DNA from: Nitrososphaerales archaeon | GTDB taxonomy: Archaea; Thermoproteota; Nitrososphaeria; Nitrososphaerales; UBA213 | Length of the DNA: 7,867 nt | NCBI GenBank assembly: GCA_038868975.1 | Contig: JAWCSA010000085.1 | Coordinates: forward strand, 1 to 7,867 | Direction: 5' to 3' | In this document: one piece after another, positions 1-3,844 of the stretch | Position numbering within the stretch: position 1 is the first letter of the stretch | Layout: every line of letters begins with the position of its first letter | Notes under the pieces: generated by a model | Database searches by the model: none | What the model was told of the DNA's origin: nothing | Seen by the model: the letters and a program-made list of their open reading frames with translations, nothing else | Made by a program: the position numbers and the translations under genes

Positions 1-2
1 TA

Positions 3-414
3 GCAGATGCTGCATATGACAGCAATATTACAAGGCTGATGATAGTGAAGAAGTTAAAGATCATACCATTCATACCATTGAATGCAAGGAACTGCAAGGG
101 TAGGAATGAAGAGGAGAAAAGGGCGCAGAGAAAGAAGCTGTGTCTGAAGTTCTATGCAAAGAAATATATCAAGAATTATTGGATAGACCCTGACTCAGCA
201 ATTCGATAAGGAATATGATGCAAGGACATTGTCAGAGCAGGGCTTTTCGATAGGAAAGGGCTCGTTGAATCTCGATTCGTTGAAGCATAGAGGGATAGAA
301 TGGGCAACGTTACATTCTACATGCATATGCATAGTTATGTTATTGGTAGCAAAGACAGCAGTAGAAATAGGAAGACCGGACCTTATGCGGTGCGTGAAAT
401 GCTTCCAAGGATAA
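3..414 (+). pseudogene. C-terminal part of a DDE transposase (IS4/IS5-superfamily, DDE_Tnp_1-like), cut by the window edge and interrupted by a frameshift near 187-209
   Basis: The frame starting at nt 3 reads ADAAYDSNITRLMIVKKLKIIPFIPLNARN...KKYIKNYWIDPDSAIR* (stop 207-209). The frame containing nt 196 is open from 187 and reads QQFDKEYDARTLSEQGFSIGKGSLNLDSLKHRGIEW...VAKTAVEIGRPDLMRCVKCFQG* (stop 412-414). The D-x-A-Y-D-S block (second catalytic D) and the Y-x2-R-x3-E-x2-F-x3-K block (catalytic E) are typical of DDE transposases. Here they sit in different frames. Confidence 0.6.
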
Positions 415-444
415 TTATTCACAGCCCTCTAGATGTGAAAAATC

Positions 445-526
445 CTAGAGAGCACGAGCTAACAATACTCTTCTACGGTATCTGTTTGCATGCACCCTAT
501 CCGCCCATTGTGGGCACTATGCGTGC
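445..526 (-). pseudogene. Possible decayed 5' end of a second IS110-family transposase gene (relic)
   Basis: The minus strand reads cacgcata-gtgcccacaatgggc-ggatagggtgcatgcaaa...agtattgtt. The intact gene start reads cacgcata-ttgtagct-ggactggatgtacacaag...agtatagtt. Matches are an exact 9-mer (518-526 = 1594-1602), 11/18 over the G-L-D-V-H-K codons, and 8/9 at 461-469 vs 1523-1531. All are collinear but carry indels and stops. This feature overlaps module B of the candidate RNA, so the two interpretations compete. Confidence 0.3.
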
Positions 527-585
527 GCTACGAGGCAGCTCCAATCATGGGATCGCGTATACTGACGCATCGAGATCACGGAGCT
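492..585. ncRNA. Candidate structured (bridge-RNA-like) non-coding RNA 3' of the IS110 recombinase. Strand unresolved.
   Basis: Module A: outer stem AGCTCC 537-542 / GGAGCT 580-585; 8+8-nt internal loop (543-550 aatcatgg; 572-579 gagatcac); inner hairpin GAT(c)GCGT 551-558 / ACGCATC 565-571 with a 6-nt loop.
Module B: outer stem GCAC 492-495 / GTGC 523-526; 7+7-nt internal loop (496-502 cctatcc; 516-522 actatgc); inner hairpin GCCCA 503-507 / TGGGC 511-515.
This stretch is locally much more GC-rich than its surroundings. All pairs are Watson-Crick, so the transcribed strand cannot be inferred. Confidence 0.3.
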
Positions 586-634
586 ATTAAATGCCTGATC
601 ATGATTTGTAATTCCCGCATGGGTCATAGTATGG

Positions 635-1606
635 CTATCTGTTCTTCAATACGGAATAGCAACACATCCAGAGCCTTCTAGCTGCAGCTACTTTTGCGAT
701 CTTCTTTCCTTTGCTCTGTGCTATTCTATGATACGCTCTTGTTATCGATGTATCATACTTCAGATGCGTGGTCACACATTCTACAGTTATCCACTTAAGC
801 CATCTAGATCCTTCCTTTGTTATGTTGCCGTATCTCTTCCTCGTACCGCTTGAATTCACAGATGGAACAAGCCCTGCATAAGAGCACAGATGCTCTCCGT
901 CGAAGAATCTCTTTATTTCTCCGATCTCAGATTTTATCAGTAACGCAGTGTAGTAACCTATACCCGGTATAGTCATGAGCAGTTTAGAATCATCATCTTC
1001 TGGAGCCATCCTCGTCAGTTCCAAAGATATCTTTGCTATTTGTTTATCAAGTGCTGCTATCACTGGTAGATAGCTTTCAACAGCATCCATTCTAACAGAG
1101 TGCAGCCATTTGATTCCCTCTGCTGTGAACAATCCGTACGCAGGTTCTTCTACACCATTGTAGAGCAGGCATGCTTTTATCTTAGCCTTGAACTTTGTTC
1201 TCGTCCTTACAAGGAATGCTCTCCTCCTAACTTTCTCCCTTAACTCAGCAACAGTTTCGTCAGGCATGTATGATAACGGCAGCGCATTAAGCCTAGTTAA
1301 CTCCGCAAGTATGGTGCTATCAACCTTATCTGTCTTTATCATGTTTTTGGATATCATCTTTGTCTCCTTTGGGTGTGATACCAGCACGTCACAGCCTTTA
1401 TGCTTCAGTTTCCTGTATATTGGTACAATTGATGTCGAAGCTTCCATCGCTACTCTTTCTATCTTATCTGCATATTCATCAAGAAATATCAGCAATTCCT
1501 TGTTAGGTATTCTCCTTCTGGCAACTATACTCCCATCAGAGCTCATCAAGGTAGCATATGTGTTGTCCTTGTGTACATCCAGTCCAGCTACAATATGCGT
1601 GCTCAC
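635..1606 (-). CDS. IS110-family DEDD transposase/recombinase, apparently intact (323 aa, GTG start)
   Basis: The N-terminus is MSTHIVAGLDVHKDNTYATL (G-x-D-V-H-K, first D of the RuvC-like DEDD domain), followed by VAMEASTS and KTDKVDS acidic blocks. The C-terminal Transposase_20-type block is IPGIGYYTALLIKSEIGEIKRFFDGEHLCSYAGLVPSVNSSGTRKRYGNITKEGSRWLKW, which contains the conserved S-G serine region. There are no internal stops. The only in-frame start near the conserved N-terminus is GTG at 1606-1604. Confidence 0.9.
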   Translation of the reverse strand: MSTHIVAGLDVHKDNTYATLMSSDGSIVARRRIPNKELLIFLDEYADKIERVAMEASTSIVPIYRKLKHKGCDVLVSHPKETKMISKNMIKTDKVDSTILAELTRLNALPLSYMPDETVAELREKVRRRAFLVRTRTKFKAKIKACLLYNGVEEPAYGLFTAEGIKWLHSVRMDAVESYLPVIAALDKQIAKISLELTRMAPEDDDSKLLMTIPGIGYYTALLIKSEIGEIKRFFDGEHLCSYAGLVPSVNSSGTRKRYGNITKEGSRWLKWITVECVTTHLKYDTSITRAYHRIAQSKGKKIAKVAAARRLWMCCYSVLKNR

Positions 1607-1624
1607 AGTATGTCGTGAGCACGC
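1597..1624 (-). promoter_or_regulatory. Perfect 10-bp stem / 8-nt loop hairpin that contains the transposase GTG start codon
   Basis: On the plus strand, GCGTGCTCAC (1597-1606) and GTGAGCACGC (1615-1624) are exact reverse complements separated by agtatgtc. In mRNA sense this is 5'-GCGUGCUCAC-GACAUACU-GUGAGCACGC-3'. The 3' arm begins with the GUG start and covers codons 1-3. The structure is a sequence fact; a regulatory role is inferred. Confidence 0.5.
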
Positions 1625-1656
1625 TGTTCTTATTTTCTTCTCATCGCATCATGGGA

Positions 1657-1677
1657 GATCTAATAACATTTAGTATC
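1657..1677. other. Bulged 7-bp hairpin in the region upstream of the IS110 CDS; structural counterpart of the hairpin at 551-571
   Basis: GAT-CTAA (1657-1663) / TTAG-(t)-ATC (1670-1677) with 6-nt loop taacat. The counterpart at 551-571 is GAT-(c)-GCGT / ACGC-ATC with 6-nt loop atactg. Both sit between the shared blocks atcatggga and tcgaga..tcacg. Confidence 0.5.
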
Positions 1678-1754
1678 GGATTCGAGATTCTATCACGTTA
1701 TTCTTGAACGGACTTTATCAAAGGTTTTCATTTATAACTCTATAAATTCATGCC

Positions 1755-2689: not shown

Positions 2690-3844
2690 TCAGTCGACCT
2701 TGTTTGATTTTACGCCATAAAGTACATCGGTTATCAATTTTTTCATACTTTCTTTAAAAGTAGATTCGGAAAATTTATTTGCAATTTTGTTAAGGGCATT
2801 CCTTTCATACTGGTTGGAATTCATTACCTGCAAGATTATCTGTGACGCATGTTCCAAGTTTCTATAATGATAAATACTAGGGACAAATTCTGTCTGTCCT
2901 CCGTGATTTGGCACAACAGGAATCAATCCAGCAGCCATGGCTTCGACTATTGATATGCCAAAATGTTCGCCTACCATTGTGTGAAGATACGCCTTACTTG
3001 TTGCCATTGCTCCCAACAACGTTTCGAAGCTTGCATTTATCAGCATTGATACGCGTCCGCGCACCTCCTCTTCATTTGCAATTTTCAATAACTTCTGATA
3101 ATAAGGATAATTCGCCGGTATCAAACTTCCTATAATCTGCAGCTTTATGTTACGGGGTAGCATTTTTATGATCTTAATAGTGTTCTCAAGTTTCTTTTCG
3201 GGTGTATACCTCGATACGACTAGTATTTTATCCACCCTATTATTTGAGTTAAGGACCTGCGAAAATCTTTCCACATCAACAGGAGGGTATATTATGATTG
3301 GCTCAATATCAGGATAAATCTTCTTTATTGCCTCCTTGCTGAAATTGGAGTTGGTTAAAATCGTACCTCTCTTCATACCATAGTCCATCAATGTTTCCGT
3401 AAGATACTTGTATGGTTTGAAGTACGCCTTCCAAAAGAGTGAGTTCTGATACTTGCTTGGATATTCTTTCAACATTAATGCCAAGACAGGAAAATGCAGG
3501 TAGGCAATGTATGGAACACCAGCAGGTAAATAGTATGGAAGGACATCTCCATGCGTGTTGATCACTATATCAGCGTCTCTAACTCTTAGAGCTGGAATTA
3601 TTGTAAACAATCGCTGGTATATCCCAAAGTATTTGAATTTGAATGGAAAGAGTGCTATGACTCTGTCAACCTCAATCTTACGGCCGTACGCCTTTTCTAT
3701 CGCTTCAAATTCTGGTTTTTGAGAAGTTACAAGTTCAACTGTGAAGCCCATATCCTTCAGTAATTCTATCGTATTAACGGCGACTCTTTCCCCTCCACCC
3801 CTACTGTTAAGGTTATGATGAATTACAGCAGCTTTCAATTGCAT
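2690..3844 (-). CDS. GT4-family (GT-B fold, Glycos_transf_1) glycosyltransferase with ALG11-like N-terminus, 384 aa
   Basis: The C-terminal block is EHFGISIVEAMAAGLIPVVPNHGGQTEF (E-x7-E retaining-GT4 signature). The N-terminal HHNLNSRGGGERVAVNT and AYLHFP resemble the ALG11 / alpha-1,2-mannosyltransferase N-domain. ATG start at 3844. Confidence 0.9.
   Translation of the reverse strand: MQLKAAVIHHNLNSRGGGERVAVNTIELLKDMGFTVELVTSQKPEFEAIEKAYGRKIEVDRVIALFPFKFKYFGIYQRLFTIIPALRVRDADIVINTHGDVLPYYLPAGVPYIAYLHFPVLALMLKEYPSKYQNSLFWKAYFKPYKYLTETLMDYGMKRGTILTNSNFSKEAIKKIYPDIEPIIIYPPVDVERFSQVLNSNNRVDKILVVSRYTPEKKLENTIKIIKMLPRNIKLQIIGSLIPANYPYYQKLLKIANEEEVRGRVSMLINASFETLLGAMATSKAYLHTMVGEHFGISIVEAMAAGLIPVVPNHGGQTEFVPSIYHYRNLEHASQIILQVMNSNQYERNALNKIANKFSESTFKESMKKLITDVLYGVKSNKVD

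What the first reader, a model, noticed from the sequence alone, without database searches (positions are those of the whole stretch)
492..585. Two tandem stem / symmetric-internal-loop / hairpin modules beside an IS110-family recombinase: candidate bridge-RNA-like guide RNA
Established knowledge: IS110-family DEDD recombinases (for example IS621) are directed by an element-encoded bridge RNA. Its two internal loops each carry a left and a right guide, for target and donor DNA. The RNA lies in the long non-coding end, 5' of the CDS in the IS110 group and 3' of it in the IS1111 group.

Seen in the sequence, 50-143 nt beyond the transposase stop:
- Module A (537-585): 6-bp outer stem, 8+8-nt internal loop, 7-bp bulged inner hairpin.
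- Module B (492-526): 4-bp outer stem, 7+7-nt internal loop, 5-bp inner hairpin.
- A 10-nt linker joins them, and the segment is conspicuously GC-rich within AT-rich surroundings.
- Within each loop the two strands share a tetramer on the same strand: TGAT in module A, CTAT in module B.

Inference: this could be a compact guide RNA for a small (about 1.15 kb) archaeal IS110 element.

Caveats:
- The modules are shorter than characterised bridge-RNA loops.
- The strand is unresolved.
- Module B overlaps a possible relic of a transposase 5' end.
- I could not find convincing guide-to-flank complementarity by eye.
Basis: partly seen in the sequence, partly recalled or inferred. Interest (0 to 1): 0.75.

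Follow-up and report, generated by a model that had tools for sequence, protein, structure and literature searches.

The report
Archaeal IS1111-type bridge (seek) RNA
The two hairpin modules are real and are the guide ("bridge" or "seek") RNA gene of an archaeal IS110/IS1111-family insertion sequence, a known kind of system, and this particular copy of the element looks damaged.

Summary

Window 480-592 (minus strand, same sense as the transposase gene) encodes a ~95-114-nt RNA with two stem / internal-loop / hairpin modules. Its folding energy alone is no better than chance (z = -0.8). A covariance model built from relatives, however, finds the same RNA beside the recombinase gene in 124 of 160 related archaeal loci. 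Three of its four helices are about 99% paired, with many compensatory changes.

- **Module A** is a target-binding loop. Its 3' strand equals left flank + core dinucleotide + the first 2 nt of the element. Its 5' strand is complementary to the right flank. Across 42 guide classes, 213/252 and 181/252 positions match, and 0 of 20,000 permutations do as well.
- **Module B** is a donor-binding loop. Its 3' strand AUAGG+core equals the right-end terminus. Its 5' strand NCAU is complementary to left-end nt 1-4.
- **Core.** The core (TG or CG) co-varies in both loops and at both junctions.
- **Family type.** Subterminal inverted repeats, RNA position and guide order are all IS1111-type.

The window copy matches its left flank over 9 nt. 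It also has a premature stop in the transposase gene, and its right-end terminus is interrupted by an IS4/IS5-like element. It is therefore probably immobile.

This is a new member of a known kind, of moderate interest.

The parts
480..592 (-). Bridge/seek RNA gene (covariance-model extent). The structured core is about 586-488.
   Evidence: Model R1 scores 101.9 bits, E about 1e-25, on the minus strand only. nhmmer finds the block conserved in about 30 loci whose transposase is only 60-66% identical.
538..584 (-). Module A, the target-binding loop: outer stem GCUCCG/UGGAGC, internal loop, hairpin UGCGU-CAGUAU-ACGCG.
   Evidence: Outer and inner helices are 99.4% paired over 70 distinct sequences. 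Six pairs show compensatory changes in 25-28 sequences each, and 0 of 500 shuffles reach this. An independent RNAalifold run keeps both helices.
570..578 (-). [quoted passage not shown] This copy lacks the family's C that faces the core G.
   Evidence: In the family, the reverse complement of this strand matches the right flank at 181/252 positions, against a permuted mean of 89 (0 of 20,000 permutations). It is not testable in the window because the right flank is missing.
544..553 (-). 3' loop strand AUCCCAUGAU, the left-target guide: left flank (UCCCA) + core (UG) + the first 2 nt of the element (AU).
   Evidence: It matches the window's left junction TCCCA|TG|AT (window 1656-1648) over 9 consecutive nt. 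Family statistic: 213/252 against a permuted mean of 98 (0 of 20,000).
529..537 (-). Linker U-GCCUCGUA. The family consensus is GCCUGGUU or GCCUGGAU, nearly invariant; the window has G>C at a conserved position.
   Evidence: Alignments A2 and A4.
488..528 (-). Module B, the donor-binding loop: closure GCG/UGC (or GCAC/GUGC in this copy), internal loop, hairpin UGCCC-ACAAU-GGGCG.
   Evidence: The inner hairpin is 99.7% paired, with two pairs showing compensatory changes. The outer closure is conserved but does not co-vary and is only 67-73% paired in longer registers.
519..523 (-). Right-donor guide CGCAU, complementary to left-end nt 1-5 (ATGCG).
   Evidence: RNA GCAU / CCAU / UCAU co-varies with left ends starting ATGC / ATGG / ATGA across clades.
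493..501 (-). Left-donor guide GAUAGGG-UG: same sense as the right-end terminus (ATAGG) plus the core.
   Evidence: In the family, AUAGG(G)+UG goes with right end CATAGG|TG, and AUAGG+CG with CATAGG|CG. The core is identical in the left-target guide and at the left and right junctions in 63/67 sites.
599..1606 (-). IS110-family DEDD recombinase gene. GTG start at 1606, premature TAG at 635-637, ancestral stop TGA at 599-601.
   Evidence: PF01548 2.1e-22 and PF02371 5.3e-21. NF033542 'IS110 family RNA-guided transposase' scores 212 bits against a cut-off of 140. Read-through gives NR*PYYDPCGNYKS*, which matches the relatives' NRxPYxDP tail.
1607..1649 (-). Short left end: ATGCG + subterminal inverted repeat ATGAGAAG (1644-1637) + a hairpin that sequesters the start codon.
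   Evidence: Left-end alignment of 26 elements. The hairpin GCGUGCUCAC...GUGAGCACGC has z = -3.6.
1650..1658 (-). Left junction: core TG (1651-1650) and left target flank TCTCCCA (1658-1652).
   Evidence: Similarity among relatives stops exactly here. The flank matches the left-target guide.
430..479 (-). Remainder of the right end, with the right subterminal repeat TTCACAT (439-433). It is cut 3 nt after the repeat, so the terminal ~AGGG + core + right flank are absent.
   Evidence: The family right end is (C/T)TTC(A/T)CAT-AGG-core. The window reads TTCACAT-CTA|GAGGGCTG....
1..429 (+). 3' part of a decayed IS4/IS5-like DDE element. Its terminal repeat ...AATTATTCACAGCCCTC ends at 429 and abuts the IS110-type right end.
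   Evidence: Weak DDE_Tnp_1 matches. Homologues are listed. Other copies end at the same ...GCCCTC terminus, and L167 shows both terminal repeats with a 6-bp duplication.

Best explanation
Window 480-592 (minus strand) is the guide-RNA gene (bridge RNA / seekRNA) of a ~1.2-kb archaeal insertion sequence of the IS110 family, with IS1111-type architecture.

**Element layout**
- Left target flank, then the core dinucleotide.
- A 43-nt left end carrying a subterminal repeat.
- The DEDD recombinase gene.
- The RNA gene, the right subterminal repeat, AGG, and the core again.

**How the RNA would work**
- It is read in the same sense as the recombinase gene, probably as its 3' UTR or a processed piece of it.
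- It folds into two stem / internal-loop / hairpin modules.
[quoted passage not shown] - Bound to the recombinase, the RNA would bring the circularised right-end/core/left-end junction and the target together. Strands would be exchanged at the shared YG core.

**Shown here**
- Conservation of the RNA and helix covariation.
- The strand.
- Guide/flank and guide/end complementarity, and core co-variation.

**Inferred from IS621, ISEc11 and similar elements**
- Transcription, RNP formation, a circular intermediate, and the chemistry.

**This particular copy**
It is probably no longer mobile:
- Premature stop codon in the recombinase gene.
- Right-end terminus interrupted by another IS.
- The C that faces the core is missing from the right-target guide.
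- A substitution in the invariant linker.
- The same single insertion recurs in all assemblies that carry it.
For: **The gene next door**
- An IS110-family DEDD recombinase lies beside the RNA.
- It is a distant homologue of the structurally solved bridge recombinases ISCro4 and IS621.

**Conservation of the RNA**
- The window's 3' flank is conserved at the DNA level in about 30 elements whose protein is only 60-66% identical. An nhmmer search with the window's 5' flank finds only the window's own locus.
- Model R1 finds the RNA in 124 of 160 related loci. In 113 of them it starts within -48 to +13 nt of the recombinase stop, on the coding strand.

**Structure**
- Three helices are 99.4-99.7% paired. 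There are 167 cells with changes on both sides, against 62 expected.
- Sliding one strand by 1-3 columns collapses pairing to 30-53%.
- Invariant or near-invariant G-U pairs fix the strand.

**Guides against flanks**
- The test used 67 distinct insertion sites in 42 guide classes.
- Left: 213/252 positions identical (permuted mean 98, maximum 134).
- Right: 181/252 (permuted mean 89, maximum 122).
- 0 of 20,000 permutations reach either value.
- The core is identical in the left-target guide and at both junctions in 63/67 sites. The donor guide carries the same core.
- The right-donor guide co-varies with left-end position 4.

**This window**
- The left-target guide matches the left junction over 9 nt.
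- CGCAU is complementary to the left-end sequence ATGCG.

**Agreement with the literature**
- RNA 3' of the gene, subterminal repeats, and the guide complementary to the top strand lying 5' of the one complementary to the bottom strand all fit the published IS1111 description (PMC11187229; PMC11208160).
Against: - There is no direct evidence of a transcript or of RNA-protein binding.
- No Rfam 15 family matches, and the published bridge-RNA covariance models were not available.
- Single-sequence folding energy is not better than shuffles.
- The outer stem of module B is conserved but lacks covariation.
- In the window the right-target guide and the left-donor guide cannot be verified, because the right-end terminus and right flank are replaced by another IS.
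- The window's right-target guide ends in A where nearly all relatives have the C that faces the core G.
- Pairing of the right-donor guide covers only 4-5 nt and is not contiguous with the core.
Confidence: 0.88

Rival explanations
1. The RNA gene in this window is still functional. It would guide an active recombinase, either this copy read through or truncated, or one supplied in trans.
For: - The RNA still scores 101.9 bits against the family model, with all conserved helices intact.
- The DEDD residues and the GL-P----SG motif of the protein are intact up to residue 323.
Against: - A premature TAG removes the conserved PYxD tail.
- The right-end terminus needed as donor is interrupted at window 429/430.
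- The exact protein is found only at this one insertion site, in 3 MAGs and 2 read-set assemblies.
- There are deviations at the core-facing position of the right-target guide and in the invariant linker.
Confidence: 0.12
2. The conserved block acts at the DNA level. It would be recombinase-binding sites or a single-stranded DNA hairpin in the right end, not a transcribed guide.
For: - It lies inside the right end, where transposases often bind.
- No transcript data exist.
Against: - Strand-specific wobble pairs (G-U / U-G in 68-70 of 70 sequences) sit next to Watson-Crick covariation.
- The loop strands track the flanking host DNA, which a protein-binding site would not do.
- In sister clades the block sits in the left end instead, with the same internal logic.
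- Characterised relatives use an RNA.
Confidence: 0.05
3. The hairpins are chance products of a GC-rich patch, or belong to one of the plus-strand ORFs (300-590 or 490-681).
For: - Folding z-scores are near zero.
- One assembly calls a 96-aa gene on the opposite strand (L002 6017-6307).
Against: - The ORFs have no Pfam match.
- Hairpin-loop lengths vary by non-multiples of 3 and substitutions are compensatory.
- There are 124 independent covariance-model hits at a fixed position relative to the recombinase gene.
Confidence: 0.01

Closest known systems
seekRNA of IS1111-family elements (ISEc11, ISPa11, ISKpn4, ISPst6; Siddiquee et al. 2024, PMC11187229)
   Same: - Encoded in the non-coding region downstream of the DEDD transposase gene.
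- Size about 82-96 nt.
[quoted passage not shown]
- The element has subterminal inverted repeats with short terminal extensions.
- The recombinase carries the GL-P----SG motif and is about 334 aa when intact.
   Different: - The hosts are archaeal: Nitrososphaerales here, and mostly Bathyarchaeia, Hadarchaeota and Thermoplasmata among relatives.
- The protein has no close similarity to the characterised bacterial members. The best hit in the plasmid collection, which holds mostly cultured organisms, is haloarchaeal IS110-family elements including ISHvo10, at about 35-37% identity.
- Nothing here is experimentally tested.
IS621 bridge RNA (IS110 group; Durrant et al. 2024, PMC11208160; Hiraizumi et al. 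2024, PMC11208158)
   Same: - Two internal loops: a variable target-binding loop followed by a conserved donor-binding loop.
- Each loop carries a left guide (pairs with the bottom strand) and a right guide (pairs with the top strand).
- A 2-nt core is shared by target and donor and covered by the guides.
- The right-donor guide pairs discontiguously.
   Different: - The RNA lies 3' of the gene rather than 5'.
- The left/right guide order within the loop is reversed.
- The core is YG (TG or CG), not CT.
- The RNA is shorter and has no 5' stem-loop.
- The subterminal repeat is 8 bp rather than 2-3 bp.
- The window protein aligns to IS621 only at E = 5e-8, over the C-terminal half.
IS1111-family exceptions with an upstream non-coding region (ISMtsp17; ISHvo10 with long non-coding regions on both sides; PMC11187229)
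   Same: A sister clade found here (L081, L083-L085) and haloarchaeal relatives carry the homologous RNA 5' of the gene, while keeping the IS1111-type guide order and subterminal repeats.
   Different: The window's own clade has the canonical downstream position. The hits to the ISHvo10-like loci are weak (8.8-16 bits).

Membership tests
Bridge RNA / seekRNA of IS110-family elements | Encoded in the long non-coding end, next to a DEDD (PF01548 + PF02371) recombinase gene, on the same strand | tested here: met
   The hit starts 6 nt after the ancestral stop. 113 relatives have it within -48 to +13 nt of the stop.
Bridge RNA / seekRNA of IS110-family elements | Conserved secondary structure with two internal loops, supported by covariation | tested here: met
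   three helices are 99+% paired with compensatory changes. The outer closure of module B is conserved only, without covariation.
Bridge RNA / seekRNA of IS110-family elements | One loop's two strands are complementary to opposite strands of the target, on either side of the insertion point, and vary with the target | tested here: met
   213/252 and 181/252 positions match across 42 guide classes, and 0 of 20,000 permutations reach this. In the window only the left guide could be checked (a 9-nt match); the right flank is missing.
Bridge RNA / seekRNA of IS110-family elements | The other loop's strands are complementary to the element's own ends (the donor) | tested here: met
   AUAGG+core equals the right-end terminus, and NCAU co-varies with left ends starting ATGN. 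In the window CGCAU faces ATGCG. The left-donor guide cannot be checked because the right-end terminus is interrupted.
Bridge RNA / seekRNA of IS110-family elements | The same core dinucleotide in the target guide, the donor guide, and both junctions | tested here: met
   identical in 63/67 sites. TG and CG classes switch together in both loops.
Bridge RNA / seekRNA of IS110-family elements | The RNA is expressed, binds the recombinase and is required for recombination | not testable with these tools
   There are no transcriptome or biochemical data.
Bridge RNA / seekRNA of IS110-family elements | Match to the published IS110/IS1111 bridge-RNA covariance models | not testable with these tools
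   Those models are not available here. Rfam 15 gives no relevant match.
IS1111 group (as opposed to the IS110 group) | Subterminal inverted repeats of 7-17 bp with short terminal extensions | tested here: met
   Relatives have ATGAGAAA / TTTCTCAT or ATGGGAAG / CTTCACAT. The window has ATGAGAA against TTCACAT (6/7).
IS1111 group (as opposed to the IS110 group) | Short left end, long right end, RNA downstream of the gene; the top-strand-complementary guide lies 5' of the bottom-strand-complementary guide | tested here: met
   compared with PMC11187229.
IS1111 group (as opposed to the IS110 group) | Recombinase of 330-350 aa with a GL-P----S/TG motif | tested here: met
   GLVPSVNSSG. Relatives are 329-335 aa. 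The window is 323 aa, or 334 aa if the TAG is read through.
IS1111 group (as opposed to the IS110 group) | Phylogenetic placement of the recombinase inside the IS1111 clade of ISfinder | not tested
   No ISfinder reference set was available. The nearest named element is ISHvo10 at about 35% identity.

The most novel reading that the evidence does not exclude
The window belongs to a large, so far undescribed archaeal lineage of compact IS1111-like bridge systems. The recombinase is about 330 aa and the RNA about 95-114 nt.

- Both target and donor guides sit in simple internal loops.
- The core dinucleotide varies naturally (TG, CG, occasionally AG) and is co-programmed in both loops.
- The same RNA gene has moved between the right and left ends in sister clades.

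Intact members could be a source of small, possibly thermotolerant, programmable recombinases. They could also give archaeal comparison points for the proposed IS110-to-Nop5/C-D-box link.
Probability: 0.55. Interest if true: 0.45.

Novelty: new member of a known kind. Interest (0 to 1): 0.38.

Why it matters
**What it shows**
- RNA-guided recombination by IS110/IS1111 elements extends, with the same rules, into uncultured archaeal lineages. These rules are a target loop, a donor loop and a shared core.
- The lineages are Nitrososphaerales, Bathyarchaeia, Hadarchaeota and Thermoplasmata.

**What it provides**
- More than 100 natural guide/target pairs, from which the pairing register of this subfamily can be read directly.
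- The register is: left-target guide = left flank + YG + 2 nt of the element; right-target guide = core G + 5-8 nt.

**Practical consequences**
- For annotation, this 'intergenic' GC-rich patch, and the spurious ORFs called on it, should be labelled as a bridge-RNA gene.
- For tool mining, the family is compact and simple.

It does not reveal a new mechanism.

Tried and rejected
- **Rfam 15, permissive search of the whole window.** Only chance-level hits elsewhere; nothing at 480-592.
- **Single-sequence folding significance.** Uninformative.
- **Other copies of the exact element.** None. The identical protein occurs only at this same locus. A single-protein scan of the genome collection found nothing, so relatives had to be reached with an alignment.
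- **nhmmer with the window's 5' flank.** It found only the window's own locus. The short left end was recognised only after anchoring an alignment on the start codon.
- **RNAalifold's 8-bp register for the module B outer stem.** Only 73% paired in the wider family. The alternative 6-bp register is 67% paired. Only GCG/UGC is general.
- **The window's right flank, three readings that did not hold.**
  - The right end finishing at ...TCTCTAGG.
  - A 4-bp CTAG insertion or an IS5-type YTAR duplication.
  - An AT core.
  - All three were rejected once other copies of the neighbouring DDE element showed that its terminus is ...CAGCCCTC, at window 429.
- **A 7-nt same-sense match to the right-target guide in the left flank** (TCGAGAT, window 1682-1688). 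Considered and dismissed as chance.
- **The tRNA-like motif beside clade-1 targets.** It is not a tRNA gene (ARAGORN finds none in 14 loci).
- **A K-turn / C-D-box reading of ...UGAUU.** No conserved GA lies opposite it.

Full report
**1. What is in the window**

The window comes from a Nitrososphaerales MAG contig (source names). On the minus strand, 635-1606 encodes a 323-aa protein. It has both IS110-family domains: PF01548 at 2.1e-22 and PF02371 at 5.3e-21. NCBIfam NF033542, 'IS110 family RNA-guided transposase', scores 212 bits against a cut-off of 140.

Relatives are 329-335 aa and end in ...NRxPYxDP... The window has a TAG in place of x. Reading through gives PYYDPCGNYKS and then TGA at 599-601. 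The ORF therefore carries a premature stop, and the finding (492-585) begins only 14 nt past the ancestral stop.

**2. The observation**

The energy is not distinguishable from shuffles: z = -0.83, and -0.29 for 480-640. The patch has GC 0.58 in surroundings of about 0.40. Rfam 15 has nothing there. On its own, the sequence could not settle the question.

**3. Comparative evidence for an RNA**

- **Relatives.** The recombinase has 1,495 database relatives at E <= 1e-10, the closest only 66% identical. I fetched 160 related loci from genomes and metagenomes.
- **DNA conservation.** An nhmmer search with the window's 3' flank finds a conserved block of about 110 nt (window 592-479) in about 30 loci. 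The 5' flank finds only the window's own locus.
- **First alignment.** A MAFFT alignment of 25 of these sequences gives an RNAalifold consensus with the same two modules. L113 and L130 show compensatory changes.
- **Covariance model.** A model built from that alignment hits 124 of the 160 loci, and the window on its minus strand only (101.9 bits). In 113 loci the hit starts within -48 to +13 nt of the recombinase stop, on the coding strand.
- **Pairing statistics.** These are over 70 distinct sequences.
  - The module A outer stem, the module A hairpin and the module B hairpin are 99.4-99.7% paired.
  - Several pairs switch between two Watson-Crick types in 25-28 sequences.
  - 0 of 500 shuffles reach the observed covariation.
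  - Sliding one strand by 1-3 columns drops pairing to 30-53%.
  - RNAalifold run afresh on that alignment keeps these helices.
- **Strand.** Three invariant or near-invariant G-U / U-G pairs would be A-C mismatches on the other strand, so the RNA is gene-sense.
- **Weak point.** The module B outer stem is poorly supported. Only a GCG/UGC closure is general, and it never varies.

**4. Element ends**

Anchoring alignments on the start codon and on the RNA shows where similarity between independent insertions stops.

- The left end is short. It reads core-ATGCG (or ATGGT), then the subterminal repeat ATGAGAAA (or ATGGGAAG), then a hairpin that buries the start codon.
- The right end carries the RNA, a spacer, the repeat TTTCTCAT (or CTTCACAT), then AGG, then the core.
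- The dinucleotide just outside each end is the same on both sides. It is TG in the window's clade and mostly CG in the next clade.

This is the IS1111-type layout: subterminal repeats, short left end, long right end, and RNA downstream (PMC11187229; PMC11208160).

**5. The loops are guides**

For every locus I extracted the loop strands from the model alignment and the flanks from the mapped junctions.

- **Module A, 3' strand.** It reads left flank + core + AU. The AU is the first two bases of the element. In a sister clade whose left end starts with AA, the guide reads AA instead.
- **Module A, 5' strand.** It is the reverse complement of the core G plus the right flank.
- **Statistics.** The test used 67 distinct insertion sites in 42 guide classes, scoring six non-core positions per side.
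  - 213/252 positions match on the left (permuted mean 98, maximum 134).
  - 181/252 positions match on the right (permuted mean 89, maximum 122).
  - 0 of 20,000 permutations do as well.
- **Examples.**
  - UCAGACUGAU with UUUUUCACAC sits at CAGACTG | TGTGTGAAAA.
  - UUCACCCGAU with UGGAUUUGC sits at TCACCCG | CGCAAATCC.
  - UGUUGUUGAU with UGAAGAAC sits at TGTTGTTG | TGTTCTTC.
- **Module B loops are conserved.** This is expected for guides that read the element's own ends.
  - The 3' strand AUAGG(G)+UG or AUAGG+CG equals the right-end terminus CATAGG plus the core.
  - The 5' strand GCAU, CCAU or UCAU is complementary to left ends beginning ATGC, ATGG or ATGA.
- **Core.** It is the same in the left-target guide, the left junction and the right junction in 63/67 sites. 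The donor guide carries the same core.

The guide complementary to the top strand lies 5' of the one complementary to the bottom strand. This is the order reported for IS1111 seekRNAs, and the reverse of IS621. Published seekRNAs are 82-96 nt, so the size is normal.

**6. The window's own copy**

- **Left junction.** Window 1658-1648, read on the minus strand, is TCTCCCA|TG|ATGCG... The module A 3' strand AUCCCAUGAU matches TCCCATGAT over 9 nt, of which 5 are flank-specific.
- **Donor guide for the left end.** CGCAU in module B is complementary to ATGCG.
- **Right side.**
  - After the right repeat TTCACAT (439-433) the sequence reads CTA and then GAGGGCTGTGAATAATTATCC.
  - That second stretch is the terminal repeat of a decayed IS4/IS5-like DDE element filling window 1-429.
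  - Other copies of that element end at the same ...CAGCCCTC terminus in unrelated contexts. One copy (L167) shows both terminal repeats and a 6-bp duplication.
  - The last nucleotides of the IS110-type right end, which the donor guide GAUAGGG-UG predicts as about TAGGG+TG, are therefore missing. So are the core and the right flank. They presumably lie beyond the window's start.
  - The right-target guide (reverse complement TCGAGATCA) cannot be tested.
- **Signs that this copy is a relic.**
  - The premature stop in the recombinase gene.
  - An A where the family has the C that faces the core G.
  - A G>C change in the near-invariant linker.
  - The identical protein occurs only at this one site, in three MAGs and two read-set assemblies.

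**7. Comparison with known systems and verdict**

Every testable defining feature of an IS1111-type bridge/seek RNA is met at the family level. For this copy, every feature that the surviving sequence allows to be tested is also met. Expression, protein binding and requirement for recombination are untested.

Archaeal IS110-family recombinases are known: 662 homologues in one survey, thought to have been acquired by repeated transfer. Bridge RNAs were predicted for 93% of IS1111-group elements in ISfinder. This is therefore a new member of a known kind, not a new mechanism.

The nearest named element is haloarchaeal ISHvo10, at about 35% identity. There and in a Halanaeroarchaeum relative, the model gives only weak hits upstream of the gene.

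I rate interest at about 0.38. The identification is correct and well supported, and the family is useful. A specialist would not find it surprising.

Noticed in passing
window 599-637 (minus strand): The recombinase ORF ends at a premature TAG (635-637). Read-through restores the family's conserved PYxDP tail and reaches the ancestral TGA at 599-601.
   Followed up: yes
window 1-429 (plus strand); L166, L167, L170, L171: A decayed IS4/IS5-like DDE transposase remnant with frameshifts. Its terminal repeat ...AATTATTCACAGCCCTC ends at 429 and cuts the IS110-type right end 3 nt after its subterminal repeat. Another copy (L166) is followed by TAGATATGAAACC, oddly similar to the window's TAGATGTGAAAAATCC. 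This could reflect a target preference or a second right-end relic.
   Followed up: partly
window 1596-1624 (minus strand); the same position in relatives: A strong hairpin in the left end pairs the start codon and the first codons with upstream sequence (GCGUGCUCAC...GUGAGCACGC, z = -3.6). Relatives keep it through compensatory changes (GAGCUCA/UGAGCUC, GCGCUCA/UGAGCGC). It is probably a translational control that sequesters the start codon.
   Followed up: partly
L081, L083, L084, L085 at 2843-2961; L174 at 1046-1161; L173 at 1013-1082: In a sister clade (recombinase 32-33% identical, 356 aa) the same two-module RNA lies 36 nt upstream of the gene, in a ~200-nt left end. The right end is only ~57 nt, and both guides still match the flanks. 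Haloarchaeal relatives, including an ISHvo10 copy, give weak upstream hits. The RNA gene has evidently moved between element ends.
   Followed up: partly
flanks of L089, L093, L097, L102, L104, L106, L109, L006, L083-L085: Many insertions of the window's clade sit in (TG)n tracts next to a repeated motif TGGTGCGGGCGTC..GATTTGAACC. This looks like the reverse complement of a tRNA 3' half with CCA, sometimes on both sides. ARAGORN finds no tRNA gene in these loci, so it may be a repeat family or an att-site remnant.
   Followed up: partly
L144 (RNA at 3175-3291): Its left flank (CCAGACTG) fits the guide class UCAGACUGAU of other elements, not its own RNA (UUCACCCGAU). Its right flank roughly fits its own right-target guide. 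This may be a chimera from recombination between two element copies.
   Followed up: no
L014, L045, L141: Two model hits per locus, meaning tandem, nested or solo RNA-bearing right ends.
   Followed up: no
right ends of clade-2 loci (e.g. L132, L139, L156), about 17-22 nt before the right-end terminus: A conserved TAAATA / TAATTA box lies near the right-end terminus. After circularisation it would sit about 25-30 nt upstream of the start of the left end. It could be a junction-formed archaeal TATA promoter for the recombinase gene. The window's right end has no clear equivalent.
   Followed up: no
window 300-590 (plus strand); L002 6017-6307: A 96-aa ORF antisense to the RNA gene is called as a gene in one public assembly. 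It has no family match and is almost certainly spurious.
   Followed up: yes
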